64,000 nucleotides of DNA from Halobacteriota archaeon (GCA_034189535.1 JAXHUQ010000001.1:67-64066), one strand, 5' to 3'; positions 7,479 through 39,868 are shown, counted from the stretch's first letter. Notes: generated by a model from the sequence alone, not told the origin. A program made the numbers and translations.

Positions 7479-10262
7479 TTGGGAACGAAAACGAGATCAA
7501 TTCTCGGTGAGCTTAGTTTGACAAGACGTTCGTTCACTAAGATCACCGCAGCTGTTGCGGCTACTGCTGCAATGTATAAGGGATTTGGCAAACTCGCTAA
7601 ATACGCAAAAGATACCGGTTACATGGACGATGTGATGGTAGAAGCTGCAGACACTGCTAAAACAGAGCAAGTGAAGAGTATCTGCTCTTTTTGCTCGGTT
7701 GGCTGTGGATATATCGGCGTTGTGAAAGATGGAGTCTTCACTGGAATGGAACCATGGGAAGATCACCCCATAAATCAGGGTGGATTGTGTTCAAAAGGTA
7801 CGGCATTGGTAGATGTCACCAACTCTGAAAAACGACTGAAATATCCGATGGAGAAGGTAGGCGGTAAGTGGAGAAGGATTACTTGGGACGAAGCCATAGA
7901 GAAAGTTGGCACTCAGCTAACAAGCATAAGAGATACTTATGGCCCCGATTCTGTCTTCATGTGCGGACTTGTTCACGGATCAAATGAAGAAGCGTATATG
8001 TTCAGAAAGTTTGGTATGCTATTCGGGACGAACAACATCGACCACCAGGCTAGGATATGTCACTCAACGACTGTAGCAGGTCTTCTGAACACCTTCGGAC
8101 ATGGTGCGATGACAAATACAATTATCGCCATGCAACACGCAAAATGTCATTTCTTCTTTGGATCGAATGCAGCTGAGGCACATCCTGTCTTCATGCAGAA
8201 GATACTTGATTCAAAGGATCGGGGTGCTAAGATCGTCGTTGCGGACCCGCGATTTACAAAAACGGCTGCTAAGTCTGATTTCTACGTTAGGTTCAGGCCC
8301 GGTTCGGATATCGCATTCCTTTACGGCCTCATAAATGTGATACTCGAGAACGGATGGCAAGATCAAGAGTACATCGACAACAGAACCTATGGATTTGAGT
8401 ATGTAAAAGAGGCTGTGAAAGGCTATACCCCTGAAGTAGTTGAGAAGATAACCTGGGTAAGTGCCGACGACTTAAGAAAGGTTGCTGAGATGATCGCAAA
8501 GAATAAACCGAGTAATATCATCTGGTCGATGGGAGCAACCCAACACAGTGTGGGTTCTCAGATCATTCGAGCTGCGGCAATATTGCAGTGTATCCTTGGT
8601 AACCAGGGAGAATGGGGTGGAGGTTGTATACCAGTCCGTGGACATTGTAACGTCCAGGGTGTAACTGATATGTGTGTCCTGTCTCACTTCTTACCAGGGT
8701 ATTACGGCGTAACAAGTGAAGGTTCGTGGGATTGGTATTCGAAGGTCTTCACAGATACGCCAAGTACATCAGGCTCCATTACATTCGATGAACTCAAGGG
8801 GAGATTTGCAACCTACAATGGCGAGAGCATGATGACCAAGATCGGCTTTGCTGTCTCAAGATGGTATGAAGGGGTCTTGATGCCCGAATCTGATATTGAC
8901 CAGCCCCATAATATCAAAGCTGCAATCCTATGGGGTGAAGCCACAAGCTCGATTACCGAGATGAAGAGGGAGAAAGAGGCGATGGAGAAACTGGACTTGC
9001 TTGTTATCGTCGATCCATTCCCGACAAGCGCTTCTGCAATGCCTGATAGAGCTGATGGGATCATACTGTTACCTGCAGCGACAAGGCAGGAGGGTACCGG
9101 TAGTGTGACAACCACCGGAAGAGAGTGGCAATGGAGAGATGTTGTTGTACCGCCTCTCTACGAGAGCAAGACTGACATGGAGATATTCCAGCTTCTCGCA
9201 AATAAACTGGGTTTCGGTGCTCATTTCGATTACAGTAGCATAGAAGACGTGACCCGGGAGATAAACCTCGCATGCAGGCCAATTGGTCTTCAAGGGCAGA
9301 CACCTGAGCGGATGAAGAAGCAGAAGGCGAACGCCCATACATTTGAGACTGAGTATGGAAGAGCTGTAGGCGGTCCTTGTGATGGCGAATATTGGGGATT
9401 ACCGTGGCCATGCTGGACGACTGATCACCCTGGAACTCCGATACTTTACAATGACAACGCTCCGGTAATGGAAGGAGGGCATGATTTCAGGGCAAAGTGG
9501 AAGTATCCTGACGATGAGCCCAATGCAGGAGAGGAGATTGTAAGGGGCAACCTACCACCATCAGGTACGGGAGGCACCATACATTGGACATATAATTACG
9601 CAAAGGATCCATCTGGTGAGGTTAACAGACAGGCCCTCAGCGAAGGAAACCCGCCGACAGGTAGAGGAAGGGCTATGCTGAGAGTAGCCGGTTGGACTGA
9701 TGAGGTCCCCGTACACAGAGAGCCACTGGAGAGTCCCGAACCGGATCTTGTTGCAGCTTATCCTACTTATGAAGATAAGACGTTCTACAGGATACCAACC
9801 AATTTCAAGACTGAACAGCAGAGATCGATCGCTGAAGGACGTCACATTAAATACCCAATAGTACTTACAACAGGAAGACAGGTTGAGCATCACGGTGGAA
9901 GCGCTCAGACCAGAGGATCAAAATATCTGGCCGAACTTCAACCTGAGATGTATGTGGAGATAAACCCCGCACTAGCTGCTGATAAAGAGATCAAGCACTG
10001 GGACTTCGTCTGGGTTGAGTCTGCAAGAGGGAGATGTAAAGTAAGAGCCTATGTGACAGACAGAGTCAACGAGAAGACAGTCTTCATGCCATACCATTGG
10101 GCAGGTATCTTCGAGGGCGAATCATATGAAGACAGGTATCCTGATGGTTCCGCAGAGTTCAAAATTGGGGATTCAGCAAACATCATAGCTTCAGCAGGAT
10201 ATGACGAACAGACACAGATGCAGGAGACCAAAGCTGCTCTGGTTAATATCTATAAGGCGTAG
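7479..10262 (+). CDS. fdhA: Formate dehydrogenase catalytic subunit (Mo/W-bisPGD), Tat-exported, Cys-type rather than selenocysteine
   Basis: Tat motif 'TRRSFTKI'; N-terminal Fe-S motif 'CSFCSVGCGY'; 'HQARICHSTTVAGL...GHGAMTN' aligns with FdhF 'QARV-U-HGPSVAGL', with a TGT Cys codon at 8058-8060. No in-frame TGA over 927 aa. Confidence 0.8.
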   Translation: MGTKTRSILGELSLTRRSFTKITAAVAATAAMYKGFGKLAKYAKDTGYMDDVMVEAADTAKTEQVKSICSFCSVGCGYIGVVKDGVFTGMEPWEDHPINQGGLCSKGTALVDVTNSEKRLKYPMEKVGGKWRRITWDEAIEKVGTQLTSIRDTYGPDSVFMCGLVHGSNEEAYMFRKFGMLFGTNNIDHQARICHSTTVAGLLNTFGHGAMTNTIIAMQHAKCHFFFGSNAAEAHPVFMQKILDSKDRGAKIVVADPRFTKTAAKSDFYVRFRPGSDIAFLYGLINVILENGWQDQEYIDNRTYGFEYVKEAVKGYTPEVVEKITWVSADDLRKVAEMIAKNKPSNIIWSMGATQHSVGSQIIRAAAILQCILGNQGEWGGGCIPVRGHCNVQGVTDMCVLSHFLPGYYGVTSEGSWDWYSKVFTDTPSTSGSITFDELKGRFATYNGESMMTKIGFAVSRWYEGVLMPESDIDQPHNIKAAILWGEATSSITEMKREKEAMEKLDLLVIVDPFPTSASAMPDRADGIILLPAATRQEGTGSVTTTGREWQWRDVVVPPLYESKTDMEIFQLLANKLGFGAHFDYSSIEDVTREINLACRPIGLQGQTPERMKKQKANAHTFETEYGRAVGGPCDGEYWGLPWPCWTTDHPGTPILYNDNAPVMEGGHDFRAKWKYPDDEPNAGEEIVRGNLPPSGTGGTIHWTYNYAKDPSGEVNRQALSEGNPPTGRGRAMLRVAGWTDEVPVHREPLESPEPDLVAAYPTYEDKTFYRIPTNFKTEQQRSIAEGRHIKYPIVLTTGRQVEHHGGSAQTRGSKYLAELQPEMYVEINPALAADKEIKHWDFVWVESARGRCKVRAYVTDRVNEKTVFMPYHWAGIFEGESYEDRYPDGSAEFKIGDSANIIASAGYDEQTQMQETKAALVNIYKA

Positions 10263-10273
10263 GGGGCTAAAAG

Positions 10274-10786
10274 ATGAAATTCGTAATAAATATTGAGCGA
10301 TGTATCGATTGCGGTGGTTGCTGGGTTGCATGTAAACAGGCAAATGATGTCGATGAGGAGATCCAAAGAATCAGAATAGTGACAGTAGATGAAGGTGTTG
10401 CCGGGGAGAAGAGTATACCTGTCCCTTGTATGCACTGTAGTCAGCCTGCCTGCATGAATGTATGTCCGGGAGAAGCGATAAGCAAGAGATCCGACGGAAT
10501 CGTTCTTGTAGATCAGAGCAAATGCATCGGATGCAGGTACTGTAATATGGTGTGTCCATTCGGATCTCCACAGTTCAAAGAGTCCGGAAGTAAGATGAAC
10601 AAATGCACATACTGTGTTGAGAGGATAGACGCGGGACTCAGACCTGCGTGTGGTATCTTCTGTTCGACAAAGGCACTGTACGTTGGAAAATCTGAGTCTG
10701 ATATTGATTCTCACGCAACAAAGATCGGTGCTAGAAAGCTTGTCGAGATAACCGACCCGGATGTGTACATAAAAGGGAACATTTGA
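10274..10786 (+). CDS. fdhB: Formate dehydrogenase iron-sulfur subunit (4x[4Fe-4S] ferredoxin-like)
   Basis: Four Cys clusters (CIDCGGCWVAC, CMHCSQPACMNVCP, CIGCRYCNMVCP, CTYC...C...C); lies 11 nt after fdhA. Confidence 0.75.
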   Translation: MKFVINIERCIDCGGCWVACKQANDVDEEIQRIRIVTVDEGVAGEKSIPVPCMHCSQPACMNVCPGEAISKRSDGIVLVDQSKCIGCRYCNMVCPFGSPQFKESGSKMNKCTYCVERIDAGLRPACGIFCSTKALYVGKSESDIDSHATKIGARKLVEITDPDVYIKGNI

Positions 10787-10787
10787 G

Positions 10788-11315
10788 GTGAAAGAGATGA
10801 ATAGAAAACAAACAATAGCCTTCATGGCATCGATGATTGCACTTTTGGCTATAGGGTTTGCCAGTTCTGTCTCCGCTGAGACCTTCGGAGAGCACCATGC
10901 ATCAATAGGGCCTTCAATACCAGCCGATCCGACGAACGAAGATTGTCTTAAATGTCATTCGTCGATGCTCAAGGAGGGAGATACTGAAGGAGTAAAAGCA
11001 TTCCACATAAAACATGTGGAGACTCTGAGTATGAGTTGCATTCAGTGTCACAAAGTAGATGAAGAGTTACCAACTCTCAAACGGCTTGTTTCAGAGGACA
11101 CTTGTGTGCCCTGCCACGAAGAAGGCAGCATGGGTCGTGAGATCTTTACATCAGCAGATGACGATATGCAAACGACAACTGACGATAAGGAAACGACTAC
11201 TTCAGACACTACAACAGTTGGAGACGATGACGAAGAAACTCCGGGATTTGAGGTGATCTTCGCTGTGACAGGACTTCTTGCAGTCGCGTATCTTGTACTT
11301 AGAAGAAACAAGTGA
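10788..11315 (+). CDS. Secreted tri-heme c-type cytochrome with a Thr/Asp-rich linker and PGF-CTERM archaeosortase-A sorting signal
   Basis: Signal peptide; three CxxCH motifs (CLKCH, CIQCH, CVPCH); C-terminal 'TPGFEVIFAVTGLLAVAYLVLRRNK' (PGF, then TM helix, then basic tail). Start overlaps the fdhB stop. Confidence 0.75.
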   Translation: MKEMNRKQTIAFMASMIALLAIGFASSVSAETFGEHHASIGPSIPADPTNEDCLKCHSSMLKEGDTEGVKAFHIKHVETLSMSCIQCHKVDEELPTLKRLVSEDTCVPCHEEGSMGREIFTSADDDMQTTTDDKETTTSDTTTVGDDDEETPGFEVIFAVTGLLAVAYLVLRRNK

Positions 11316-11436: not shown

Positions 11437-11748
11437 AATGAGAGAGGAAGGGCGACTGCCGGTAGCAATCTTACATAGATTGTGGCTGAGGAAAGTCCCC
11501 CCACCATCTGGACACACGAACACCGATTGGTGTAGGGCGAGAGTCTTGGCTCTGGCACAGAAACGATACCACCGCATATATATGCAATGATACAGAAATG
11601 TTGAGGTCTTATGTTGGTGGGTGGAACGGCGAAACCTCGTGGGTGCAAGCGAAAAGGGCAGATAAGGCGTCCAGACGATGCTCTTTAAAATATGCGCTAA
11701 GATGAATGTCGCCTCGAACAGAAGGGGGCTTACTCTCCTCACTCGGGT
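11437..11748 (+). ncRNA. rnpB: RNase P RNA (archaeal type)
   Basis: Universal CR-I 'GAGGAAAGUCC' at 11488-11498 and CR-V 'ACAGAAGGGGGCUUAC' at 11718-11733; CR-IV-like 'GGUGGGUGGAACGGCGAAACCUCGUGGGUGCAAGCG'. The ends are approximate. The minus-strand ORFs called here are spurious. Confidence 0.75.
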
Positions 11749-11878: not shown

Positions 11879-12589
11879 ATGGTCGAATATAAACTCGGCA
11901 TAAGCGGATTGGATGATGTGATAGGGGATGTGAGGGGCGGATCCAATATCATGCTGATGGGACCTCCAATGAGTAAAAAAGAGGTTATTATCAATAACAT
12001 CGCTTATCAGGGCCTTAAGACAGGGGAATCCTCTATATTTATTTCTACAGGAGAATCCGGCGAGAGTATAATTCGTTGGTTCAAAGATAACGGAAAAGAT
12101 ATCAATGGTTATATCGACAGGCTTGGTGTTATCGATTGCGTATCAAAGACTCTCGGGCTCAACGTCGAGGATACCGAATCTATAAAGAGGATATCTTCGC
12201 CGGTAAATCTGACCGGTATCAGTGTAAGTATTACTAACTTTTTTGAAGAATTCTGGATGAAGAAAGGAATCCAGAAATCAAGGCTTTGTGTGGATTCTCT
12301 CTCAACGATACTTATGTACTCAAATCTGCAGACTGTCTTCAGATTTCTCCATGTCCATACCAGGAGGATCAAGACTGCAGGAGCTCTTGGGGTATATATC
12401 ATCGAGAGTGGTATGCATGATGAACAGACAATAACCACTCTAAAACAACTTTTTGACGGAATCATCGAGATAGAAGAAGAGAACGAATCGTACTTTATCA
12501 GGGGTGTTGGGTTGACAAAAAAACCAACAAAGTGGTTTGAGTACGAGGCAGACGGTGCAGAGATGATCGTTAAACATAAGGAGAGGTGA
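11879..12589 (+). CDS. KaiC/RadA-like RecA-superfamily protein with a degenerate P-loop (probably inactive)
   Basis: 'GISGLDDVIG..GGSNIMLMGPPMSKKEV' has KaiC-type architecture, but the Walker A GxxxxGK[ST] is replaced by GPPMSKK. Confidence 0.5.
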   Translation: MVEYKLGISGLDDVIGDVRGGSNIMLMGPPMSKKEVIINNIAYQGLKTGESSIFISTGESGESIIRWFKDNGKDINGYIDRLGVIDCVSKTLGLNVEDTESIKRISSPVNLTGISVSITNFFEEFWMKKGIQKSRLCVDSLSTILMYSNLQTVFRFLHVHTRRIKTAGALGVYIIESGMHDEQTITTLKQLFDGIIEIEEENESYFIRGVGLTKKPTKWFEYEADGAEMIVKHKER

Positions 12590-13767
12590 GGATGATTGAG
12601 ATCGGAATCCCTAAAATAGATGATTATCTAAAAGGTGGGTTACCAATCGGAAAATCACTCCTGTATTATATTCATCCGGGTGTGGAAGGGGACATATTCG
12701 GCATGCAGACTCTTTACACCAACCTTAGGAAGGGGCATAAAGGGATATGTATAACTACGACAGCCAGTCCTGAGACTTTACGGGAGAGGTTCAGAGAGTA
12801 TGACTTTGACCTTGAGAAGTACGAAGAAAATTTTGAGATTATCGACGCGTACTCGGCTTTGATCGGTGCAAACTCGTCTGAAAAATATGTTGTTGACAAC
12901 CCGGAGGATATTAAAAACATCGATAAAGTGATAAGAGAAGCAATTGAGGATTCTTCTGGAGGGCTTATTATCCATGGATCTCTCTCGAATATTATGGATA
13001 TGTGCGGTGAAGAGGAGACGCTTGAGTATATAGAAGGCTGGAACAAGAGTATGCTATTATATGACGGCGTCGGGATATACAATTTTACAGCCTGGCCCTA
13101 CTCAGATGAGACCATTAAGAAGGTGAGGGATGAGTTCTTCAATGCCGTTGTTAAGATAGGCGGGGTTGCTGAGAAGGTGATATTCGGGCAATACTATTCT
13201 GTCTCCAAGTCCGACTGGACGGATGGTAATCAGAGCCATTCAATTCTATTCAAGATAATTAAGCCGGGAGGTGTAAGGGCTTACCTTCCGAAGATTCTCG
13301 TCACAGGTCCTTTCAATGCAGGAAAATCGACATTTATACATTCGCTTTCGACAAGATCCGTATCTGTTGACAGATTCGGGACGACTGTTGCTCTGGATCA
13401 CGGTCATGTGGACCATAACGGTTTCTCGGCAGATATCTTCGGAACTCCGGGTCAGGAGAGGTTCGACCCGATCCTTAAGACGCTTGGTGGTGAGGCAATG
13501 GGTGTTTTTCTTGTGATAGATTCGACCAAACCTGATGAGTGTGAAAGAGCCAGACAGATGCTTGACATTACTAAGACATTTGGGCTACCATCTGTTGTAG
13601 TTGCAAACAAGCAGGACATTCCAGGTGCATCAAGTGTTGATGATTTAAAGAGTGAGATGGCCATCTTGGATGAACAGATACCTATAGTACCAGTCGTTGC
13701 AAAGGATGGTAAGGGTGTTATTGAAGCGTTTGAAATGCTTATAGATCGGATTATGGTGAGGCTATGA
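12586..13767 (+). CDS. Fusion protein: N-terminal degenerate KaiC/RecA-like domain plus C-terminal small Ras-like (MglA/Arf-like) GTPase
   Basis: N-term 'GIPKIDDYLKGGLPIGKSLLYY' is KaiC-like without a GKT P-loop. C-term has G1 'GPFNAGKST', G2 Thr 'FGTTVA', G3 'FGTPGQERF' and G4 'ANKQD'. Confidence 0.65.
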   Translation: MRMIEIGIPKIDDYLKGGLPIGKSLLYYIHPGVEGDIFGMQTLYTNLRKGHKGICITTTASPETLRERFREYDFDLEKYEENFEIIDAYSALIGANSSEKYVVDNPEDIKNIDKVIREAIEDSSGGLIIHGSLSNIMDMCGEEETLEYIEGWNKSMLLYDGVGIYNFTAWPYSDETIKKVRDEFFNAVVKIGGVAEKVIFGQYYSVSKSDWTDGNQSHSILFKIIKPGGVRAYLPKILVTGPFNAGKSTFIHSLSTRSVSVDRFGTTVALDHGHVDHNGFSADIFGTPGQERFDPILKTLGGEAMGVFLVIDSTKPDECERARQMLDITKTFGLPSVVVANKQDIPGASSVDDLKSEMAILDEQIPIVPVVAKDGKGVIEAFEMLIDRIMVRL

Positions 13768-14129
13768 GTACGGTAAAAGATATGCTTGATAAGCTTTTGG
13801 ATGACCTCAAGAGGGTTGGAAATATCGAAGCTTCGGCAGTGGTCTCGCGTGATGGCCTTCTCATGGCATCGGATATCCCCGATGGTGTCCATGCCGAGAC
13901 ATTTGCTGCAATGAATGCGACGATGATGGGTGCTGCAGAGACGGCCATATCGGAACTTAATAAAGGAATCCCTGACAGGGTCATAATCGAATCAAAAGAA
14001 GCTAAAGTAATAGTCACTGGCGCCGGTCAGAAGGCACTTTTAGTTGTCATGTCGAGGCCCGAGGCCGGACTAGGATTGGTTCTCGTAGAGATGGAGAAGG
14101 TAACAGAGAAAATTAAAGGGTTGCTGTAA
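13764..14129 (+). CDS. Roadblock/LC7 (MglB-like) domain protein, paralogue 1
   Basis: 121 aa with the typical 'VEASAVVSRDGLLMASDIP...ETFAAMNATMMGAAE' Roadblock fold pattern; start overlaps the GTPase stop. Confidence 0.75.
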   Translation: MSTVKDMLDKLLDDLKRVGNIEASAVVSRDGLLMASDIPDGVHAETFAAMNATMMGAAETAISELNKGIPDRVIIESKEAKVIVTGAGQKALLVVMSRPEAGLGLVLVEMEKVTEKIKGLL

Positions 14130-14220
14130 AAGTTGGTCTTGATATTAAAAAATTAAAACTTGCCGAAAAAATCATGAGTAAAGAGATGCATAAACAATAT
14201 GGATATTCAAGTGTGATAGT

Positions 14221-14787
14221 GTGAAGGATAAAGTTTATTCTCAATTCTGGTACGAATCAGAAAAAGGTGCTGTGATAAGTAATACTATTAAAGGCAGATA
14301 CGTCATAACCCCACATAGCTTCCTACATATAGTTACGGAAGAGTACAAGAAAGTTGCAGGAAAGGGGGCAGCTGTAATACTTTATGCAATGGGTTTTGAG
14401 GATGGAATCAAGATAGGTCAGGCTATGTCAGATCAATTCGAGATCCATAACATAAAAAAATATAAAAAGGCAATCTCAGCATTTTCCGGGGTGGCGCAAG
14501 GTGCTGTAAATTTCTTTTTGGATTATTTTAAATGGGCAACCGTACTTGATCTTGATATGGATCTGGAAAATATGCGTGTCGTGATAAAGCTATCAGACCA
14601 TGTATTCACGAGATACCAAGAAGGAAAAGAAGAGTCCTACTGCGATTGGATACGTGGATGGATCGCGGGTTTGTTTACAGTCCTTCTTGATGAAGGCATG
14701 GCCTGTCAAGAGACCAAGTGTAAGACACTTGGTGATGAATATTGTGAATTTACTATTGGTAGAAAGGAGGAGATTCTACTTGGCTAA
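14221..14787 (+). CDS. V4R-domain protein (Bet3/TRAPP-like fold)
   Basis: C-terminal V4R Cys motif 'CQETKCKTLGDEYCEFTI'. Confidence 0.6.
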   Translation: MKDKVYSQFWYESEKGAVISNTIKGRYVITPHSFLHIVTEEYKKVAGKGAAVILYAMGFEDGIKIGQAMSDQFEIHNIKKYKKAISAFSGVAQGAVNFFLDYFKWATVLDLDMDLENMRVVIKLSDHVFTRYQEGKEESYCDWIRGWIAGLFTVLLDEGMACQETKCKTLGDEYCEFTIGRKEEILLG

Positions 14788-15262
14788 GACTGACCTCAAC
14801 AAAAATATCTTTGACGTCTACGGTGAGTACGCCATATATCACCCAGACCTTATTATAGTGAATCGTAAGGTCTCAAGTAGTATCATTGGCTCCATTTCAA
14901 AGACAGTCGATTATAATATTGGAAAGAGGATAGGAAAGATAGTTGCAGAAGAATGCAAAAAACTTTTCAAGAACAATCCACTGGATGCCTCTTTTGAGAT
15001 TATTGAATACAGCGGATGGGGGCAGATAAAGATCGACAGGAGTGAGAATGTTGTGAAGGTGCGTAACTCACTCGTCTCAAGGTACTATCTAAAACATGAA
15101 GGTGCTTCAAATGATACGATTGATGACATTATGAGTGGAATAATTTCCGCTATATTCGAAGAGATCGAGGGGAAGGAGTGCAAAGTTACCGAAACCAAGT
15201 GTATAGCGAAAGGCGATGAATACTGTGAATTTACGTTAAGTTTTGGTAATTTAAACGAATAA
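14780..15262 (+). CDS. V4R-domain protein, second copy; start re-assigned to TTG with a GGAGG Shine-Dalgarno 8 nt upstream
   Basis: V4R motif 'CKVTETKCIAKGDEYCEFTL'. The track ORF 14600..15262 overlaps the previous gene in another frame. AGGAGG at 14766-14771 precedes TTG at 14780. Confidence 0.55.
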   Translation: MAKTDLNKNIFDVYGEYAIYHPDLIIVNRKVSSSIIGSISKTVDYNIGKRIGKIVAEECKKLFKNNPLDASFEIIEYSGWGQIKIDRSENVVKVRNSLVSRYYLKHEGASNDTIDDIMSGIISAIFEEIEGKECKVTETKCIAKGDEYCEFTLSFGNLNE

Positions 15263-15339
15263 AATAGCAAAGTTTATATTATGTGTGTCCTTTGAATTGG
15301 ATACATCGAGAAATAGTATGCGGGGTCGCATGGGTTAAA

Positions 15340-15705
15340 ATGACAACGACAAAAGAGATGCTTGAAAAACTTTTGGATGACCTCAAGAGGGTTGGAAATA
15401 TCGAAGCTTCGGCAGTGGTCTCGCGTGATGGCCTCCTTATGACATCAGATATACCCGGTGGCGTCCATGCCGAGACATTTGCTGCAATGAATGCGACGAT
15501 GATGGGTGCTGCAGAGACGGCCATATCGGAACTTAATAAAGGAATCCCTGACAGGGTCATAATCGAATCAAAAGAAGCGAAAGTTATTGTTACAGGCGCA
15601 GGTCCAAAAGCACTTTTGGTTGTCATGGCGAGGGCAGAGGCCGGACTAGGTCTTATTCTGGTCGAGATGGAGAAGGTAACAGGGAAGATCAAAGAACTGC
15701 TCTAA
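15340..15705 (+). CDS. Roadblock/LC7 protein, paralogue 2 (near-identical to paralogues 1 and 4)
   Basis: Protein sequence nearly identical to the 13764 and 17399 copies; start at the internal Met 'MTTTKEM'. Confidence 0.7.
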   Translation: MTTTKEMLEKLLDDLKRVGNIEASAVVSRDGLLMTSDIPGGVHAETFAAMNATMMGAAETAISELNKGIPDRVIIESKEAKVIVTGAGPKALLVVMARAEAGLGLILVEMEKVTGKIKELL

Positions 15706-15854
15706 AGGTGTTGATCAGCTTTCTTTTTTGTACCACAAATTTATATATAAATAGTTCCATATAGCTACAAGGACTTTAGTTATCCTGTTGAGGGGATATA
15801 CCGAGCCATATATATGATTGTCGTATTGATCAGATATATCTGCAAGGTGAAATA

Positions 15855-16223
15855 ATGCCAACTATTATTGAGATGTTGGAAAAGATCTTGATGGATCTTA
15901 AGATGACAGGGGAGGTGAGCGGTTGTGCTATCGTCTCACGAGACGGGCTGTTGATGGCCTCAGATATTCCAAAAGAGGTGGATGGTGGTACATTCGCTGC
16001 TATGAGTGCAACCATGCTTGGTACAGCAGAGACCGCTGCTTCCGAGCTCGTTGAAGGAGTACCTGATAAAGTCATCGTTGAATCCCCCAATGGTAAGATA
16101 ATCATCTCCGGTGCTGGCTCCAGTGCTCTTATTGTCTGTACAACACCATCTGAAGCGAAGCTAGGTTTGGTGCTTGTTGAGATGGCACGTACTTCGGAAA
16201 AGGTCAAAAAAGTGTTGTTATAG
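15855..16223 (+). CDS. Roadblock/LC7 protein, divergent paralogue 3
   Basis: 'CAIVSRDGLLMASDIP...GTFAAMSATMLGTAE' is the same fold pattern at about 50% identity. Confidence 0.7.
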   Translation: MPTIIEMLEKILMDLKMTGEVSGCAIVSRDGLLMASDIPKEVDGGTFAAMSATMLGTAETAASELVEGVPDKVIVESPNGKIIISGAGSSALIVCTTPSEAKLGLVLVEMARTSEKVKKVLL

Positions 16224-17402
16224 GTGATGTTGTTGATCGAAACAGGGATAGAGCATCTTGACAGAAGTCTTGGTGGAGGCATACCTAATGGAAATACACT
16301 TCTTTATTACATACAGCCAGGTATCGAAGGAGAAATATTCGGTATACAGACGCTATTTCATAACCTGGAAAAAGGGTACAAAGGAGTCTTTATAACATCT
16401 TCGGCTCACCCTTCTGCAATTAAAGAATACTTTCTTGGCTTTGGATGGGATGTAGACAAGTACGAGGGTAAATTTGCTATGGTTGACGCATACTCTGCAC
16501 TTGTGGGTGCAGATTCCACTGAGAGATACGTGGTCGAGGATCCTGAGAATATTGAGAACATCAATGAGACCATCTCCGAAGCGATGTTGCATTTTCCCGG
16601 TGAGGTGATCGTATGTGGGTCACTCTCAACAATAATGGACCTGTGTGGTGAAATAGAGACGCTGAGATGTATTGAGAACTGGAATAAGATCATCTGCGTA
16701 AACGACAGCGTAGGAATCTACAATTTTACAGCGTGGCCTTACTCACAGGAGACGATTAAAAAGATTAGGGATGAGTACTTCAATGCCACGATAAAAGTTG
16801 GAGGAATAGCCGAGAGGGTCATCTTCGGTCAGTATTACGGGGTGCCAAAGGTGGACTGGACTGACACAATTATAGAATCCGTTTTATTCAGGATATACCG
16901 TCCTGGCGGAGTAAGGGTATATCTACCAAAGATACTGGTGACGGGGCCATTTAACGCTGGGAAATCTTCATTCATCCGCTCGCTTTCATCAAGGTCTGTT
17001 TCTGTTGATAGGTTTGGTACAACAGTGGCATTAGATCACGGTCACGTTGATCATAAAGGTTTCTCCGCCGAGATATTCGGAACGCCCGGTCAAGAGAGGT
17101 TCGACCCGATCCTTAAGACGCTTGGTGGTGAAGCAATGGGTGTTTTTCTTGTGATAGATTCGACAAATCCTTCAGAATTTTCTCGCGCAAAACGTATGCT
17201 CGACATCACCAAGACGTTTGGATTACCATCGGTTATTGTCGCAAACAAACAGGATATGCCCGGTGCATCAAGCATCGAATCTATCAGAACGCAGATGAAA
17301 CTTCCCGAAGACATTCCCATAGCACCAACGGTTTCAAAAGAAGGTGAAGGGGTAAAGGAAGCGTTTGAGATGCTTATTGATCGTATTATGGGAGGATTAT
17401 GA
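16224..17402 (+). CDS. Second fusion of a degenerate KaiC-like domain with a small Ras-like GTPase (paralogue of 12586..13767)
   Basis: Same architecture, with 'GPFNAGKSS', 'FGTTVA', 'FGTPGQERF' and 'ANKQD'. A stretch of about 75 nt (17093-17167) is identical to 13458-13532 apart from one mismatch. Confidence 0.65.
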   Translation: MMLLIETGIEHLDRSLGGGIPNGNTLLYYIQPGIEGEIFGIQTLFHNLEKGYKGVFITSSAHPSAIKEYFLGFGWDVDKYEGKFAMVDAYSALVGADSTERYVVEDPENIENINETISEAMLHFPGEVIVCGSLSTIMDLCGEIETLRCIENWNKIICVNDSVGIYNFTAWPYSQETIKKIRDEYFNATIKVGGIAERVIFGQYYGVPKVDWTDTIIESVLFRIYRPGGVRVYLPKILVTGPFNAGKSSFIRSLSSRSVSVDRFGTTVALDHGHVDHKGFSAEIFGTPGQERFDPILKTLGGEAMGVFLVIDSTNPSEFSRAKRMLDITKTFGLPSVIVANKQDMPGASSIESIRTQMKLPEDIPIAPTVSKEGEGVKEAFEMLIDRIMGGL

Positions 17403-17764
17403 GTACAGTAAAAAATATGCTTGATAAACTTTTGGATGACCTCAAGAGGGTTGGAAATATCGAAGCTTCGGCAGTGGTCTCACGTGATGGCCTCCTCATG
17501 GCGTCAGATATTCCTGGTGGTGTCCATGCCGAGACATTTGCCGCAATGAATGCGACGATGATGGGTGCTGCAGAGACGGCCATATCGGAACTTAATAAAG
17601 GAATCCCCGACAGGGTCATAATCGAATCAAAAGAAGCCAAAGTAATAGTCACTGGCGCCGGTCAGAAGGCACTCTTGGTTGCCATGTCGAGGCCCGAGGC
17701 AGGGCTCGGACTAGTTCTTGTTGAGATGGAGAAGATATCGGAAAAATTGGCGGAGGTGCTCTAG
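17399..17764 (+). CDS. Roadblock/LC7 protein, paralogue 4
   Basis: About 95% nucleotide identity to 13764..14129. Confidence 0.75.
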   Translation: MSTVKNMLDKLLDDLKRVGNIEASAVVSRDGLLMASDIPGGVHAETFAAMNATMMGAAETAISELNKGIPDRVIIESKEAKVIVTGAGQKALLVAMSRPEAGLGLVLVEMEKISEKLAEVL

Positions 17765-18427
17765 ATGGGGGATACGGAAAATTCCATACCATTTTTTGAT
17801 AGGGATGAGGAGTCGAGACACTTCAGGATAGGAGGTGTACCACATGCCCTGATCGATAACGAGACAATTGCAGAATTATATGTACTTCTTATCAGATCAA
17901 TCGGAAAAGAGATGACAAGAAGATTTTTTTACGATTCGGCCAAGAAAGCCGCGTTTAATCTGCAGAAAAGGATGATTGAAACATCTGATGCAATAACTGA
18001 TGATCCGGACAAGATCGTTGAGAGAATATCTATGTTTCCATATTATCTCTCCAGTTATGGATATGGTACTGGTGAGACCATAAAATCAGATGCGAGTTCA
18101 GGTAAGTATGTTTTCAGGATAGAACATTCCTTCATATCAGACGAGTTGAAGACCAGAGGTCTTGAAGATCCTACATGTTCATTCATAGCCGGTATCTTTG
18201 CCGGACTTGCCGAAGCTTGGACTGGAGAGGAGTACTCCTGTAGAGAGCTACATTGCGCCTCGAACGGATCTCCATTCTGTGATTTTGAACTCTTCCCCGG
18301 ATCTCTCACCGACAAGTTCTTCGGAGAGATTGAAAACATAAAAGACGTACTATCAAAACTGGATATTGCGGTGGAATCGATACATGAAACCATGCAGACA
18401 AAAAATGTGAGATCAAAAGTCAAATAA
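17765..18427 (+). CDS. V4R-domain protein, third copy
   Basis: C-terminal 'CRELHCASNGSPFCDFELF' V4R Cys motif. Confidence 0.55.
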   Translation: MGDTENSIPFFDRDEESRHFRIGGVPHALIDNETIAELYVLLIRSIGKEMTRRFFYDSAKKAAFNLQKRMIETSDAITDDPDKIVERISMFPYYLSSYGYGTGETIKSDASSGKYVFRIEHSFISDELKTRGLEDPTCSFIAGIFAGLAEAWTGEEYSCRELHCASNGSPFCDFELFPGSLTDKFFGEIENIKDVLSKLDIAVESIHETMQTKNVRSKVK

Positions 18428-19609
18428 AGACTTCTGAGAAGACCCGGGATTAGGCAGTTCTATGGTGCCGTACTTACCGCCACCACCCGGACGTACTATC
18501 ACCTTGTCATCTCTGAACGCCTGTATTGATTCGGCTATCCTCTTATCAACAACCATATCATTTGTGGGGATATCCACAAGGACGGTAGCCTCATTCCCAT
18601 ACTCGCTCACAAGAGAATTCCAATTCTTCTTTACTGTCTCCGAATTAGGCTTTAGACCGAGTGCCATCGCGATTATCTCTGCAAGCGGTATGAGGTGAAG
18701 ATACGGCGGTCTTTCATCAGGATGCTGTGTCTTGCACCCCACTGCAAGTTCATCAACTCTGTCACGAACACCTCTCACAATCTTTCCGCCGCAAGAACAT
18801 TTAAAACCACATTCCAACGAGTCTTTCAAAGGTTGATGTTTATAACATTTACTACAAGCTGTCTCGTTGTATTTACCTTCTTGCGGGGGCATTCCAACGT
18901 TGAGAGTAAGCCTCCTTCCACCTTCATTTTTGATGGCTTTTTCGACCTCTTCAAAACTGAGATGGCCTAACTTCATACGATTCAGCTCTCTTGCAAGCCG
19001 AATTGGCCATGGAGAATGTGCATCGGAGTTTGATAAAAAAGCTTTGCTTCTAAGCTCACTTATTCTGTCGGCATAATCGGAATCCGCACTCAAACCTAGC
19101 TCAATAAAAGATATGTAATCTCTCAAGTCTTTATAGCATTCATTGAGGGAATCATGATGTGCATAAAGTGAGGTCCATGGTGTGAAGGCATGAGCAGGAC
19201 CTATCAGTGCTGAGACATCTCTTGCATACTCGGCAACCTCCTCCCCATCAAGATCAATCCTTGGTCTACCGTCCGTATCGATGTTATGTGAGTACCTTAA
19301 AAATAGCTCATAAAGCTCTTCTCCTTTAGATATTGAAGGAATTATGAGCAAGTGGTGAACTCTATTTATATCTTCAACTTCTGTGGTCAGAATGAATTTT
19401 ATATCGTCCTGGGTAAAGATTCCATCTGATTCTTCCAGACGCTTTATCTCAGATAGCCATTTTGGGTGAAGGCAGTCACCGGTTCCGAGAAGCTCGACAC
19501 CTTTCTTCCGTGATCCCTCTGCAAGTGTCTGCAAGTCCATTCTTGAAGAAGTGGCAGCAGAATACTTGGAATGAATATGCAGATCCGCGGCTACTTCAAT
19601 AATGTCCAC
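18413..19609 (-). CDS. endoQ: Endonuclease Q-like protein (PHP domain plus C-terminal zinc ribbon), acting on deaminated-base DNA
   Basis: N-terminal PHP 'ADLHIHSKYSAATS', C-terminal 'CSKCYK...CGFKCSCGG' Zn finger, about 400 aa as in EndoQ. Confidence 0.55.
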   Translation of the reverse strand: MDIIEVAADLHIHSKYSAATSSRMDLQTLAEGSRKKGVELLGTGDCLHPKWLSEIKRLEESDGIFTQDDIKFILTTEVEDINRVHHLLIIPSISKGEELYELFLRYSHNIDTDGRPRIDLDGEEVAEYARDVSALIGPAHAFTPWTSLYAHHDSLNECYKDLRDYISFIELGLSADSDYADRISELRSKAFLSNSDAHSPWPIRLARELNRMKLGHLSFEEVEKAIKNEGGRRLTLNVGMPPQEGKYNETACSKCYKHQPLKDSLECGFKCSCGGKIVRGVRDRVDELAVGCKTQHPDERPPYLHLIPLAEIIAMALGLKPNSETVKKNWNSLVSEYGNEATVLVDIPTNDMVVDKRIAESIQAFRDDKVIVRPGGGGKYGTIELPNPGSSQKSLFDF

Positions 19610-38203: not shown

Positions 38204-38264
38204 ATATTGAAAAGTGACATTTCACTAGCTCAATTTATATTACAGAAAAATTAAAAATTACTCC

Positions 38265-38945
38265 TTATTTGTACTCTTTTTCGTATTTCAATCTGTTACT
38301 ACCTTTTTCAGTCAATTTTAAACTACTAGGAGCTGTTACTTCTTCTCTTCTTCTTGATCTTATGAGGAAAAATACCAGGATGACAATAATTGCTAGCAGT
38401 ATTAGTGTGGTATTGCTTGCAAAGAACTCACTCATCATACCGGTGGACATTAAGGGTTCTTCACCAACCACTTCCACTGAAATTGGTATTCTGAATCCGG
38501 TCCAGGCGGCTACTCCGGGAGAGTCTTTAGCAGAGACATCCGCATCTCTGAAACAGACCCAAGTCCTCCTCTGGTACCAGTGTCCGGGGATTGGTGCGTC
38601 GGTAGAATTGACTCCATAGAGACCTGGTTTGGAATTTTCGGGAATCTCTATCGTAATTGTGAAGACTTCACTCTCACCTTCACTGAGTGTATATTCATTC
38701 GGCTCTATTTTGATCCAGGAAGTGATATTCATCTCTTCCGTATCCCCATTAAAAGGAGTGTACAGCGCATACCAGTAGCCATATCTTGTATCCTTGTCCC
38801 CAGTCAATTGTACTGTAAAAGTGAGTATTTCTCCCGGTTCCCCTCTCCAGCCGTAAGCGGTTATTGTATCTGTTTGTGTGGCTGATGCGGCTTGTATAGA
38901 TGAAAGAATAATCAACAATATCACAATGGATCTTATAGCTTTCAC
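38265..38945 (-). CDS. Secreted surface protein with a C-terminal TM anchor and basic tail
   Basis: Signal peptide; C-terminal 'LILLAIIVILVFFLIRSRRRE'. Confidence 0.5.
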   Translation of the reverse strand: MKAIRSIVILLIILSSIQAASATQTDTITAYGWRGEPGEILTFTVQLTGDKDTRYGYWYALYTPFNGDTEEMNITSWIKIEPNEYTLSEGESEVFTITIEIPENSKPGLYGVNSTDAPIPGHWYQRRTWVCFRDADVSAKDSPGVAAWTGFRIPISVEVVGEEPLMSTGMMSEFFASNTTLILLAIIVILVFFLIRSRRREEVTAPSSLKLTEKGSNRLKYEKEYK

Positions 38946-39052
38946 TGTATCTCTTTCTCCTTATATATCCACTCGGTAGATACAATATATAAACATTTCT
39001 CCCTTACCTCTTAAAAAGAGAAGAGGTACGGAGTGTTACCTCAGAAGATTAT

Positions 39053-39691: not shown

Positions 39692-39868
39692 TTAAAATTA
39701 ATTTTCCTAATTTATCCGAGTTTACATCACCATACAGATTAGAAATATGGCCATTTTTCTATGCATATATGTCTTATCTTATAGTATTTATAACTTGTGC
39801 TAAGGTACTAATATTGCTCTGAGATAACAATATTGGCTTTGATTATAAACACTTGCATAAAATGTGAT

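What the first reader, a model, noticed from the sequence alone, without database searches (positions are those of the whole stretch)
11879..18427. Tandemly expanded KaiC-like/small-GTPase/Roadblock/V4R cluster: a dense eukaryote-like GTPase-regulation module
Ten consecutive same-strand genes. The set is one degenerate KaiC-like protein, two fusions of a degenerate KaiC/RecA-like domain to a small Ras-like GTPase, four Roadblock/LC7 (MglB-like) proteins and three V4R-domain proteins. Roadblock/longin-like proteins are GAPs/GEFs for MglA-, Rag- and Arf-like GTPases. V4R is the prokaryotic homologue of the Bet3/TRAPP tethering subunits. Having all three together, duplicated to this extent and fused to a dead RecA-like ATPase domain, points to a multi-component GTPase switch that I do not recognise as characterised; cell polarity or membrane/surface remodelling would be the obvious roles to test. 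It sits between a periplasmic Fdh-cytochrome operon and surface-protein genes.
Basis: partly seen in the sequence, partly recalled or inferred. Interest (0 to 1): 0.85.

Follow-up and report, generated by a model that had tools for sequence, protein, structure and literature searches.

The report
Archaeal GTPase switch on dead-KaiC scaffold
Ten neighbouring genes in an uncultured methane-cycle-related archaeon encode an enlarged version of a widespread but unstudied archaeal switch: a small GTP-binding protein fused to an inactive KaiC-like domain, with Roadblock regulators and, in this lineage only, small-molecule-sensor-like V4R proteins.

Summary
All ten + strand genes (11879-18427) have the stated domains: one degenerate KaiC-like protein, two degenerate-KaiC/small-GTPase fusions, four Roadblock proteins and three V4R proteins.

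The ancestral unit is a three-gene core: a stand-alone inactive KaiC-like protein, the fusion, and one Roadblock. A scan of one genome per species found 406 places encoding a relative of the fusion. The full triad was present in 71 of the 79 loci I fetched (Methanoperedens, ANME-2, Methanocellales, Hydrothermarchaeota).

The GTPase carries the diagnostic MglA-family motifs (TT in G2, GTPGQ in G3). The Roadblocks carry the MglB-type Asp-Gly pair.

The V4R genes and the second fusion/Roadblock set occur only in this small clade and one neighbouring lineage. The modelled V4R resembles bacterial phenol-sensor domains at least as much as TRAPP Bet3.

A distant GC-rich branch links the triad to a response regulator and to type IV pilin or PilB/PilC genes. 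One Hydrothermarchaeota locus has a PilB-type ATPase gene directly upstream.

My best reading is an MglA/MglB-type switch on an ArlH-like pseudo-ATPase scaffold, with V4R proteins as inputs. The output is inferred, not shown. I found no experimental work on it. I rate it a new variant of a known kind, of moderate-to-high interest.

The parts
11879..12589 (+). g1: stand-alone inactive KaiC-like protein, iKaiC-A (236 aa; DUF7504/KaiC)
   Evidence: Pfam DUF7504 7e-26 and KaiC 3e-14. Weak FlaH/ArlH hit. The Walker A reads GPPMSKKE. In the family consensus the Walker A Ser/Thr is Glu and the Walker B Asp is mostly Asn. Orthologue present in 76 of 79 related loci.
12586..13767 (+). g2: fusion of an inactive KaiC-like domain (iKaiC-B, aa 1-~230) to an MglA-type small GTPase (aa ~231-393). 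The start may be ATG 12592.
   Evidence: Pfam KaiC and Arf/Ras. AF2 model pLDDT 82.9, pTM 0.80. The N-domain superposes on PH0284 with TM 0.86 and rmsd 2.4 A. Motifs GPFNAGKS, GTT, GTPGQ, NKQD, VAK.
13764..14129 (+). g3: Roadblock/LC7 (MglB-like), class I, the core partner
   Evidence: Pfam Robl_LC7 2e-17. SRDGLLM Asp-Gly pair conserved. 4-nt overlap with g2.
14221..14787 (+). g4: stand-alone V4R protein (188 aa) with a C-x20-C-x4-C-x7-C cluster
   Evidence: Pfam V4R 3.7e-12. Cys positions 141/162/167/175. Model matches PoxR/MopR sensors, then TRAPPC3. Orthologue in L030 at 46% identity.
14780..15262 (+). g5: second V4R protein (160 aa; TTG start after AGGAGG; 8-nt overlap with g4)
   Evidence: Pfam V4R 1.7e-10. 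Start fixed by an exact match to MDY6864357.1. Orthologue in L030 at 49% identity.
15340..15705 (+). g6: Roadblock, class I paralogue (90% identical to g3)
   Evidence: Pfam Robl_LC7. Start fixed by an exact match to MDY6864358.1. Identity matrix.
15716..15760 (+). oligo-T tract followed by an A/T-rich TATA-like box between g6 and g7: likely end of one transcript and promoter of g7-g10 (read by eye, inferred)
   Evidence: Sequence ...ctttcttttttgtaccacaaatttatatataaatag.... Not tested.
15855..16223 (+). g7: Roadblock, class II (58-59% identical to class I), specific to the second module
   Evidence: Pfam Robl_LC7 9e-12. Orthologues in L005 (93%) and L006 (80%).
16224..17402 (+). g8: second iKaiC-B~GTPase fusion (68% identical to g2; N-domain 59%, GTPase 80%). 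The public annotation starts at 16233.
   Evidence: Identical to P0011. Groups apart from the g2 clade in an NJ tree.
17399..17764 (+). g9: Roadblock, class I paralogue (93% identical to g3)
   Evidence: More similar to its in-genome paralogue g3 (93%) than to its L005 orthologue (83%), which suggests gene conversion.
17765..18427 (+). g10: third V4R protein (220 aa) with the same four-Cys spacing and a C-terminal helical tail. Its start abuts the g9 stop.
   Evidence: Pfam V4R 1.6e-11. Cys 138/159/164/172. Only five homologues found, all in the same small clade.

Best explanation
The cluster is a lineage-specific enlargement of a conserved, cytoplasmic, three-protein archaeal GTPase switch.

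Shown:
- The core is iKaiC-A (g1), iKaiC-B fused rigidly to an MglA-family GTPase (g2), and one MglB-type Roadblock (g3). These three genes are translationally coupled.
- The window's clade added a V4R pair (g4, g5), an extra Roadblock (g6), and a second, diverged set: class II Roadblock g7, fusion g8, Roadblock g9 and V4R g10.

Inferred mechanism:
- The GTPase domain cycles between GTP and GDP.
- Roadblock dimers act on its switch regions as GAP or platform, as MglB does on MglA. These could be homodimers, or class I/II heterodimers in the second set.
- The two catalytically dead RecA-fold domains form a hetero-oligomeric scaffold, by analogy with hexameric PH0284 and with ArlH. This scaffold would present the GTPase to a partner, most plausibly a hexameric PilB/ArlI-type secretion ATPase of a type IV pilus-like machine.
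- The V4R proteins are Zn/Cys-cluster, PoxR-like ligand or redox sensor domains. They would feed an environmental input into the switch through the Roadblocks, to which their genes are tightly coupled.

Net function: signal-dependent on/off or spatial control of a surface-filament or other ATPase-driven machine.
For: Domain content and motifs:
- Pfam and NCBIfam assignments.
- G1-G5 motifs invariant in 25 and in 82 family members. GTPGQ and TT are the published marks of MglA Groups 2-5. The Roadblock DG pair is the published mark of their MglB partners.

Structure of the fusion:
- Model pLDDT 82.9 and pTM 0.80. Beta-strands run straight from the KaiC-like domain into GTPase strand 1, with no flexible linker.
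- The N-domain equals the PH0284 RecA-superfamily fold, TM 0.86.
- The P-loop lysine is absent in iKaiC-B. In iKaiC-A the Walker A Ser/Thr is Glu and the Walker B Asp is mostly Asn.

Conservation:
- 406 places encoding a relative in a scan of one genome per species.
- Full triad in 71 of 79 fetched loci.
- With the GTPase domain as query, 79 clusters at 50% identity reach E<=1e-30, nearly all with the fusion length.

Link to type IV pili:
- REC-Robl-fusion-iKaiC-A is directly followed by Pilin_N genes (L092, L093) or by T2SSE plus T2SSF (L088).
- A T2SSE gene lies directly upstream of the triad in L021.
- Weak FlaH hits for g1 and g2.
- Published notes that KaiC-like and Roadblock genes recur in archaeal T4P loci (PMC4858521).

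V4R as sensor:
- Four-Cys cluster.
- Best fold matches are the PoxR, MopR and DmpR phenol sensors.
- Robl-V4R junctions of 0-1 nt in the window, L005, L030 and L084.
- The g4/g5 pair is orthologous in L030.

Other: no TM segments and no defence-system hits.
Against: - No physical interaction, nucleotide binding or GAP activity was tested.
- No complex could be modelled with the tools available.
- The 64-kb window holds no T2SSE, T2SSF or pilin gene.
- Only 1 of 79 close-branch loci has a T2SSE neighbour. The pilus link therefore rests mainly on three distinct distant loci (one of them seen in two assemblies) and may not transfer to this lineage.
- In most Methanoperedens and ANME-2 loci the neighbours are YhbY and S19e. 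In six places, counting the window, an RNase P RNA gene lies directly upstream. This points elsewhere, or to nothing.
- The GTPase domain's closest solved relatives by sequence are Arl/Arf and Rab8. MglA structures are not among the best 60.
- The V4R model is of modest confidence, pLDDT 65.6.
- Glu-for-Thr in the iKaiC-A P-loop does not exclude nucleotide binding.
Confidence: 0.5

Rival explanations
1. A prokaryotic TRAPP/Ragulator-like platform. Bet3-like V4R dimers and Roadblock dimers would assemble into a multi-subunit GEF/GAP platform for the fused small GTPase, working in membrane or envelope remodelling.
For: - The composition (V4R x3, Roadblock x4, small GTPase x2) parallels TRAPP, which combines Bet3-family and longin/roadblock-like subunits acting on a Rab.
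- The V4R model also matches TRAPPC3/Bet3 and Thorarchaeota TRAPPC3, TM 0.54-0.68.
- Robl-V4R genes are translationally coupled in three different V4R subfamilies.
- The GTPase's closest solved sequence relatives are Arl/Arf and Rab8.
Against: - V4R is absent from about 75 of the 79 related loci.
- The nearest branch, L007, lacks it.
- The catalytic motifs are MglA-type, not Arf/Rab-type.
- The best V4R fold matches are bacterial ligand sensors.
- No protein has a membrane anchor.
- In L084 the V4R-V4R-Robl trio sits next to putative wHTH regulators instead of a fusion.
Confidence: 0.12
2. A housekeeping GTPase module tied to RNA processing or ribosome biogenesis.
For: - An RNase P RNA gene lies 56-135 nt upstream, on the same strand, in the window, L005, L006, two Methanocellales loci (L017, L031) and a Methanosarcinales locus (L034).
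- In 60 of 83 loci the Roadblock gene is followed by a CRS1/YhbY RNA-binding protein gene, often with a 4-nt overlap. In about half of these loci an S19e gene follows.
Against: - Neither neighbour is universal. The YhbY loci belong to related Methanosarcinales families, so plain inherited synteny explains them.
- YhbY and S19e are absent in the window's clade, Hydrothermarchaeota and Methanocellales.
- RNase P RNA is adjacent in only 5 of 77 loci with room upstream.
- Nothing in the proteins themselves suggests RNA binding.
Confidence: 0.1
3. A KaiC-type phospho-timing or ATPase signalling hub. The KaiC-like domains would be active NTPases or autokinases, and the GTPase merely an output domain.
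For: - KaiC Pfam and NCBIfam hits.
- The family consensus of iKaiC-A keeps G-x4-GK.
- A genuine KaiC gene sits next to the triad in L021, L051, L054, L059, L064 and L068.
- A published proposal that KaiC-like ATPases are archaeal signalling hubs. I know this only through citations in PMC5847659.
Against: - The P-loop lysine and Ser/Thr are lost in every fusion examined.
- In iKaiC-A the Walker A Ser/Thr is Glu and the Walker B Asp is Asn in most members. The window's own copy also lacks the second P-loop Gly.
- KaiC hits cover only the N-terminal half of the model for the fusions.
Confidence: 0.08

Closest known systems
MglA/MglB polarity switch of Myxococcus xanthus and Thermus thermophilus (with paralogues SofG and MglC)
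   Same: A small Ras-superfamily GTPase lacking the G3 Asp, encoded next to a Roadblock-domain regulator. MglA and SofG position type IV pilus ATPases. MglB has a paralogue (MglC), much like the class I and class II Roadblocks here.
   Different: - Here the G2/G3 motifs are TT and GTPGQ (Groups 2-5 type), not RT and TVPGQ with an intrinsic Arg finger.
- The bacterial G1-G2 insertion appears absent: about 18 residues separate GKS from TT. I did not compare this against bacterial MglA.
- The GTPase is fused to a dead KaiC-like domain and partnered by a second one.
- No RomR/RomX equivalents are present.
Archaeal 'Group 4 MglA' GTPases (Wuichet and Sogaard-Andersen 2014, PMC4316618)
   Same: Same motif set, and the same host range of methanogen-related Euryarchaeota.
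   Different: That survey treated the Ras superfamily as single-domain GTPases and reported no conserved neighbours for Group 4. Here the GTPase is the C-terminal domain of a ~390-aa fusion with two strictly conserved neighbours.
Actinobacterial conservon (CvnA-D), a 'bacterial G-protein system'
   Same: A multi-gene operon that combines an MglA Group 2-type GTPase and an MglB-type Roadblock with a degenerate or atypical NTPase-fold signalling partner. It is often present in many paralogous copies per genome.
   Different: The partner there is a membrane histidine-kinase-like protein plus DUF742. Here the partners are two soluble inactive KaiC-like domains, plus V4R proteins in this clade.
ArlH (FlaH), the KaiC-like component of the archaellum motor
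   Same: A single-domain KaiC/RecA-fold protein without full catalytic motifs that docks on a hexameric T2SSE-type ATPase (ArlI). g1 and g2 give weak FlaH hits. Relatives of the triad sit next to T2SSE, T2SSF and pilin genes.
   Different: The scores are far below the FlaH cut-off (25 and 21 bits against 194). ArlH binds ATP. No arl genes are nearby. ArlH is not fused to a GTPase.
V4R sensor domains of PoxR/MopR/DmpR, and the V4R domain of the methanogen redox regulator MsvR
   Same: The whole-length fold match is best to the PoxR, MopR and DmpR sensor domains. A Cys cluster sits at the Zn site. Weak MsvR hits.
   Different: These are stand-alone proteins with no AAA+ or DNA-binding output domain, and their genes are coupled to Roadblock genes.
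Eukaryotic TRAPP core and Asgard TRAPPC3/Roadblock/GTPase proteins (PMC10933270)
   Same: The same three fold classes: Bet3/V4R, roadblock-like, and small GTPase.
   Different: In Asgard archaea these genes are reported as generally not in operons. Here they are contiguous, but the GTPase is MglA-type and the V4R link is confined to a small clade.

Membership tests
MglA family of small GTPases (Groups 2-5; archaeal Group 4) | G1 P-loop GxxxxGK[ST] | tested here: met
   GPFNAGKS in g2 and g8. G and GK[ST] conserved in 25 and in 82 relatives.
MglA family of small GTPases (Groups 2-5; archaeal Group 4) | G3 reads GTPGQ, with Thr in place of the universal Asp and the catalytic Gln kept | tested here: met
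   IFGTPGQERF is invariant. Criterion taken from PMC4316618.
MglA family of small GTPases (Groups 2-5; archaeal Group 4) | G2 has Thr-Thr instead of the Group 1 Arg-Thr (no intrinsic Arg finger) | tested here: met
   GTT(V/I)A(L/M)D, with T266 and T267 invariant.
MglA family of small GTPases (Groups 2-5; archaeal Group 4) | G4 [NT]KxD and G5 SA[KL]-like guanine-specificity motifs | tested here: met
   NKQD is invariant. G5 reads VAK or VAT (Val for Ser), so G5 is only approximately met.
MglA family of small GTPases (Groups 2-5; archaeal Group 4) | Single-domain protein | tested here: not met
   The GTPase is residues ~231-393 of a two-domain protein. Nearly all of its closest relatives are 370-415 aa.
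MglA family of small GTPases (Groups 2-5; archaeal Group 4) | Phylogenetic placement inside the published Group 4 clade | not tested
   No reference Group 4 sequences were available. By sequence, the closest solved structures are Arl3, Arf and Rab8, not MglA.
MglB / Roadblock-LC7 GAP family | Robl_LC7 domain above the Pfam gathering score | tested here: met
   45-63 bits against a cut-off of 23 for g3, g6, g7 and g9.
MglB / Roadblock-LC7 GAP family | Conserved Asp-Gly pair typical of MglB partners of Group 2-5 MglA | tested here: met
   SRDGLLM in all four paralogues and in more than 90% of 79 relatives. Criterion.
MglB / Roadblock-LC7 GAP family | Binds the cognate GTPase as a dimer and stimulates GTP hydrolysis | not testable with these tools
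   Needs biochemistry or multimer modelling.
KaiC / RecA-superfamily ATPases | RecA-like fold of the KaiC type | tested here: met
   The g2 N-domain model matches PH0284 (2dr3) with TM 0.86 and rmsd 2.4 A. Profile match 3e-26.
KaiC / RecA-superfamily ATPases | Walker A GxxxxGK[ST] and Walker B acidic residues needed for ATP hydrolysis | tested here: not met
   The fusions read PGVEG[DE][IV]F with no Lys. g1 reads GPPMSKKE. The family consensus is GPPMSGKE, and the Walker B Asp is Asn in about 70% of members.
ArlH/FlaH | Score above the NCBIfam FlaH cut-off, and an arl gene context | tested here: not met
   25 and 21 bits against a cut-off of 194. No arl, T2SSE or T2SSF genes in the window. The resemblance is functional analogy only.
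V4R domain family (PF02830) | V4R domain above the gathering score, with a Cys cluster | tested here: met
   46.6, 41.2 and 44.5 bits against a cut-off of 31. C-x20-C-x4-C-x7-C in g4 and g10. Three of these Cys positions are kept in g5.
TRAPP Bet3/TRAPPC3 subunits | Closest fold relative is Bet3/TRAPPC3, and the protein assembles with longin/roadblock-type subunits into a Rab GEF | tested here: inconclusive
   Bet3 and TRAPPC3 are matched (E 1.7e-6 to 1e-4, TM 0.54-0.68) but rank behind the PoxR, MopR and DmpR sensors (E 4.5e-8). The model pLDDT is only 65.6. Assembly and GEF activity are not testable here.
Known anti-phage defence systems (PADLOC) | Match to any defence-system protein model | tested here: not met
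   No hit better than E 0.0095 for eight proteins.

The most novel reading that the evidence does not exclude
The cluster may encode a true prokaryotic forerunner of TRAPP/Ragulator-type platforms. Bet3-like V4R heterodimers and Roadblock dimers would assemble on a ring of dead RecA-fold domains. Together they would control nucleotide exchange and hydrolysis of the tethered small GTPases in response to a bound hydrophobic or redox ligand. This would be the first operon-level, testable functional link between V4R/Bet3, Roadblock and a small GTPase outside eukaryotes. Asgard genomes do not provide such a link, because their genes for these proteins are dispersed.
Probability: 0.12. Interest if true: 0.9.

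Novelty: new variant of a known kind. Interest (0 to 1): 0.6.

Why it matters
- Small GTPases with Roadblock regulators are central to eukaryotic trafficking and to bacterial polarity. Their archaeal counterparts have no known function, and the published survey found no conserved partners for them.
- This work defines a conserved archaeal triad found at 406 places in a scan of one genome per species. The hosts include methane-oxidising Methanoperedens and ANME-2.
- The triad physically ties an MglA-type GTPase to a dead KaiC-like scaffold. In some lineages it sits next to type IV pilus genes and response regulators.
- The window's clade adds V4R (Bet3-like) proteins in tight gene coupling with Roadblocks. 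This gives a rare, experimentally approachable case for asking whether V4R proteins talk to GTPase switches.
- GC-rich, probably haloarchaeal, relatives may allow genetic tests.

Tried and rejected
- **KaiC-hubs paper not readable.** The paper of Makarova et al. 2017 (doi 10.1128/mBio.01959-17, PMC5717392) is not held. I therefore cannot exclude that the fusion is listed there. No other held paper combines KaiC with a small GTPase fusion, and none mentions DUF7504.
- **Podar 2008 V4R paper.** It mentions no GTPase or Roadblock context.
- **Wider V4R-Roadblock linkage.**
  - Word-indexed protein searches with g10 and g4 found only 5 and 6 relatives.
  - The single metagenome scan with the V4R alignment returned 2 loci of the same clade.
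  - The generality of V4R-Roadblock coupling stays open beyond the window, L005, L006, L030 and L084.
- **Defence system.** No PADLOC hits. Rejected.
- **Membrane complex.** No TM segments in any of the ten proteins.
- **RNase P RNA and YhbY-S19e neighbours.** I followed these up and kept them only as a low-probability rival, because neither is universal.
- **Searches that could not be used or found nothing.** The AFDB fold library was unavailable. A plasmid search with a haloarchaeal relative found nothing.
- **Source lookups.** Exact-sequence lookups of g2 and of P0011 found no contig. The source was identified instead through cluster members, as a 65,365-bp NCBI MAG contig labelled 'Halobacteriota archaeon'.
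- **Complex modelling.** Multimer modelling of GTPase-Roadblock, iKaiC-A/B or V4R pairs is not possible with the single-chain tool and its input restrictions. I did not attempt it.
- **Promoter/terminator scanner.** It uses bacterial sigma-70 models, so I did not use it. The archaeal TATA-like and oligo-T elements were read by eye only.

Full report
**1. What is there**

The region 11879-18427 holds ten consecutive + strand genes.

| Gene | Coordinates | Family |
|---|---|---|
| g1 | 11879-12589 | DUF7504/KaiC |
| g2 | 12586-13767 | N-terminal KaiC-like domain + C-terminal Arf/Ras-type small GTPase |
| g3 | 13764-14129 | Robl_LC7 |
| g4 | 14221-14787 | V4R |
| g5 | 14780-15262 | V4R |
| g6 | 15340-15705 | Robl_LC7 |
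| g7 | 15855-16223 | Robl_LC7 |
| g8 | 16224-17402 | N-terminal KaiC-like domain + C-terminal Arf/Ras-type small GTPase |
| g9 | 17399-17764 | Robl_LC7 |
| g10 | 17765-18427 | V4R |

I corrected two starts.
- g5 begins at TTG 14780, behind an AGGAGG. Its 160-aa product is identical to MDY6864357.1.
- g6 begins at ATG 15340.

The window corresponds to a 65,365-bp NCBI MAG contig labelled 'Halobacteriota archaeon'. PGAP names these genes only generically there, for example 'ATPase domain-containing protein', 'roadblock/LC7 domain-containing protein' and 'V4R domain-containing protein'.

Gene junctions are -4, -4, +91, -8, +77, +149, 0, -4 and 0 nt. The g4/g5 value uses the corrected g5 start; the rest come. 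An oligo-T tract followed by a TATA-like box lies between g6 and g7. By inspection only, this suggests transcription units g1-g5, g6 and g7-g10.

None of the ten proteins has a predicted membrane segment. None matches a known defence system.

**2. State of the catalytic motifs**

*GTPase domain.* It carries a complete set: GPFNAGKS (G1), GTT (G2), GTPGQ (G3), NKQD (G4) and VAK (G5). These are invariant or nearly so in 25 aligned relatives and in 82 relatives from fetched loci.

According to Wuichet and Sogaard-Andersen (PMC4316618), GTPGQ in G3 and Thr-Thr in G2 are the shared marks of MglA Groups 2-5. A conserved Asp-Gly pair marks their MglB partners. All four Roadblocks here have SRDGLLM, and so do more than 90% of 79 relatives.

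By motifs the switch is therefore MglA/MglB-type. By overall sequence, the closest solved GTPases are Arl3, Arf and Rab8. That agrees with the paper's remark that archaeal Group 4 MglA lies near the Arf/Sar lineage.

- Aligned to PH0284, the fusion's P-loop GPGTGKT has become PGVEG[DE][IV]F.
- In g1 it is GPPMSKKE. The family consensus is GPPMSGKE, with Glu for Ser/Thr, and the Walker B Asp is Asn in about 70% of members.
- These degenerate sites are themselves strongly conserved, so the domains are under selection for a non-catalytic role.

*Model of the fusion.* An AlphaFold model of g2 is confident, with pLDDT 82.9 and pTM 0.80. Only switch I is disordered. Beta-strands run directly from the KaiC-like domain into the GTPase, so the two domains appear rigidly joined. 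The N-domain superposes on the RecA-superfamily ATPase PH0284 with TM 0.86 and rmsd 2.4 A.

**3. What is conserved and what is an add-on**

The fusion is widespread.
- It has more than 1,400 relatives in the protein collection.
- A scan of one genome per species found 406 places encoding a relative. Hosts include Methanoperedens, ANME-2 (Methanocomedens, Methanogaster), Methanocellales, Hydrothermarchaeota and other Methanosarcinales.

I classified the ORFs of the 79 best loci with phmmer.
- 71 carry the same abutting three-gene unit: iKaiC-A, iKaiC-B~GTPase, Roadblock.
- V4R genes and a second fusion occur only in L005 (88% identical, same ten-gene order) and L006 (77%). Both are MAGs labelled 'tar_biofilm'.
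- L030 has the core plus V4R, V4R, Robl, V4R.
- L021 has a V4R gene loosely linked, 2 kb downstream.

An exhaustive HMMER search with the GTPase domain alone found 79 clusters at 50% identity with E<=1e-30. Nearly all were 370-415 aa long with the GTPase at the C-terminus. Stand-alone small GTPases become frequent only from about 1e-27. This GTPase subfamily is thus essentially defined by the fusion.

The published survey treated the Ras superfamily as single-domain GTPases and reported no conserved neighbours for Group 4 MglA. That may be why this triad is not described there.

**4. History of the expansion**

- The two fusions are 59% identical in the N-domain and 80% in the GTPase domain. 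Each has 86-90% orthologues in L005. An NJ tree gives separate g2 and g8 clades, and the single-core locus L007 groups with g2. The duplication therefore predates the divergence of the three related genomes.
- The Roadblocks fall into class I (g3, g6, g9) and class II (g7, 58-59% identical to class I). g9 is 93% identical to its in-genome paralogue g3 but only 83% to its L005 orthologue. This indicates gene conversion among class I copies.
- The three V4R paralogues are only 22-30% identical to one another. g4 and g5 have orthologues in L030 at 46% and 49%.
- In L084 a V4R(g4-type)-V4R-Robl trio occurs without any fusion, beside three proteins with weak wHTH and FilR1-like hits. The V4R-V4R-Robl set thus behaves as a portable sub-module.
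- Robl and V4R genes abut by 0-1 nt in the window, L005, L030 and L084.

**5. Nature of the V4R proteins**

g4 and g10 share a C-x20-C-x4-C-x7-C cluster. A model of g4 has modest confidence, pLDDT 65.6, with the core at 75-87.

It matches the full-length sensor domains of PoxR, MopR and DmpR best (E 4.5e-8, TM 0.60-0.65). TRAPPC3/Bet3 (including Thorarchaeota TRAPPC3) and MJ1460 follow. NCBIfam gives weak hits to the V4R end of the redox regulator MsvR.

The fold class is therefore V4R/Bet3, as published. Nothing favours a TRAPP-like role over a ligand or redox sensor role.

**6. Clues to the output**

The window itself has no type IV pilus genes.

*Distant branch.* In a GC-rich branch (62-71% GC, probably haloarchaeal) the module is REC-Robl-fusion-iKaiC-A.
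- In L092 and L093 it is directly followed, with overlapping stop and start, by Pilin_N proteins.
- In L088 and L089, the same locus in two assemblies, it is followed by a 758-aa T2SSE (PilB3_C) gene and two T2SSF genes.

*Close branch.* In L021 a T2SSE gene lies immediately upstream of the triad.

*Other pointers.*
- g1 and g2 give weak hits to FlaH/ArlH, the KaiC-like partner of the archaellum ATPase.
- Makarova, Koonin and Albers (PMC4858521) already noted that KaiC-family ATPases and arCOG02603 Roadblock proteins recur in archaeal T4P loci.
- From established knowledge of the Myxococcus system, MglA and SofG with MglB govern the placement of the pilus ATPases.

Together these make a T2SSE-type ATPase the most plausible target. 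This is inference from a minority of loci.

*Competing context signals.*
- An RNase P RNA gene lies directly upstream of iKaiC-A in the window (11440-11744) and in five other loci from three lineages.
- In 60 of 83 loci a YhbY gene follows the Roadblock gene, often with an S19e gene after it.
- I regard these as inherited synteny, and keep them as a 10% rival.

**7. Mechanism proposed**

Shown:
- domain content;
- intact GTPase motifs and dead ATPase motifs;
- rigid fusion;
- the conserved, translationally coupled triad;
- the clade-specific V4R and second-module expansion.

Inferred:
- Roadblock dimers act as GAP or platform on the GTPase. In the second module these may be class I/II heterodimers.
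- iKaiC-A and iKaiC-B form a RecA-type hetero-oligomer that presents the GTPase to a hexameric ATPase or another partner.
- V4R dimers (g4/g5; g10) sense a small hydrophobic or redox signal and act through the Roadblocks.

**8. Novelty and verdict**

Each ingredient is known: the MglA/MglB switch, inactive KaiC domains, and V4R. The closest described system in logic is the actinobacterial conservon.

What I could not find described:
- the conserved iKaiC-A / iKaiC-B~GTPase / Roadblock triad;
- its link to T4P and REC genes;
- the V4R-expanded form.

One caveat applies. The 2017 KaiC-hub paper could not be read.

I rate the finding a new variant of a known kind, with interest about 0.6. The 'eukaryote-like TRAPP module' reading remains a 12% possibility. 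It would be highly interesting if true, because Asgard genomes lack such operon linkage.

Noticed in passing
window 11440-11744 (+): Archaeal RNase P RNA gene (RF00373, 201.6 bits), 135 nt upstream of g1. The same arrangement, RNase P RNA 56-121 nt upstream of the iKaiC-A gene on the same strand, occurs in L005, L006, L017, L031 and L034, which represent three lineages.
   Followed up: yes
L001 9538-10660 and 59 other related loci: In Methanoperedens, ANME-2 and Methanosarcinales loci the core Roadblock gene is followed by a CRS1/YhbY RNA-binding protein gene, often with a 4-nt overlap. An S19e gene and a PDCD5-like dsDNA_bind gene then follow. This is either inherited synteny or a hint of a link to ribosome biogenesis.
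   Followed up: partly
window 7479-11315 (+): An exported formate-dehydrogenase-like molybdopterin oxidoreductase with a twin-arginine leader (RRSF). It scores below the Fdh-alpha equivalog cut-off. A 4Fe-4S subunit and a small three-CxxCH c-type cytochrome with a PGF-CTERM archaeal surface anchor follow. Together they look like an extracytoplasmic, surface-tethered electron-transfer module.
   Followed up: partly
window 13672-13971 / 15248-15547 / 17307-17606: Class I Roadblock paralogues are kept 87-93% identical within the genome. g9 resembles g3 (93%) more than its own orthologue in L005 (83%). The DNA repeat runs from the 3' end of the fusion genes into the Roadblock genes. This indicates gene conversion among tandem copies.
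   Followed up: partly
L084 343-7296 (ENA metagenome contig, 24.7 kb): A V4R-V4R-Roadblock trio without any KaiC-GTPase fusion. It is surrounded by three 270-305-aa proteins with weak wHTH (PadR) and FilR1-middle-domain hits, a UbiA prenyltransferase, a second Roadblock, and a divergent 210-aa GTPase on the opposite strand.
   Followed up: partly
L021 3212-10602 (Hydrothermarchaeota MAG): A genuine KaiC gene (239 bits, opposite strand) and a T2SSE ATPase gene precede the triad. After the Roadblock gene come several small multi-pass membrane proteins of unknown family and a membrane-anchored V4R protein. Similar paired ~112-aa membrane proteins follow the triad in L003 and L004.
   Followed up: partly
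window 18413-19609 (-): A TIGR00375-family protein (337 bits) with a PHP-like metal-hydrolase N-terminus. It is convergent with g10 and overlaps it by 15 nt. PAC2, eIF2-alpha, S27e and L44e genes follow it.
   Followed up: partly
L090 3893-4201: In one distant locus the fusion gene is followed by a second, canonical small GTPase (GDGAVGKTS ... WDIVGQ, that is, DxxGQ type), cut by the contig end. A response-regulator gene lies upstream on the opposite strand.
   Followed up: no
window 36587-44188 (-): Large putative surface proteins: 1439 aa with DUF2341, and 538 aa with an NPCBM_assoc domain. There is no evident link to the cluster.
   Followed up: no
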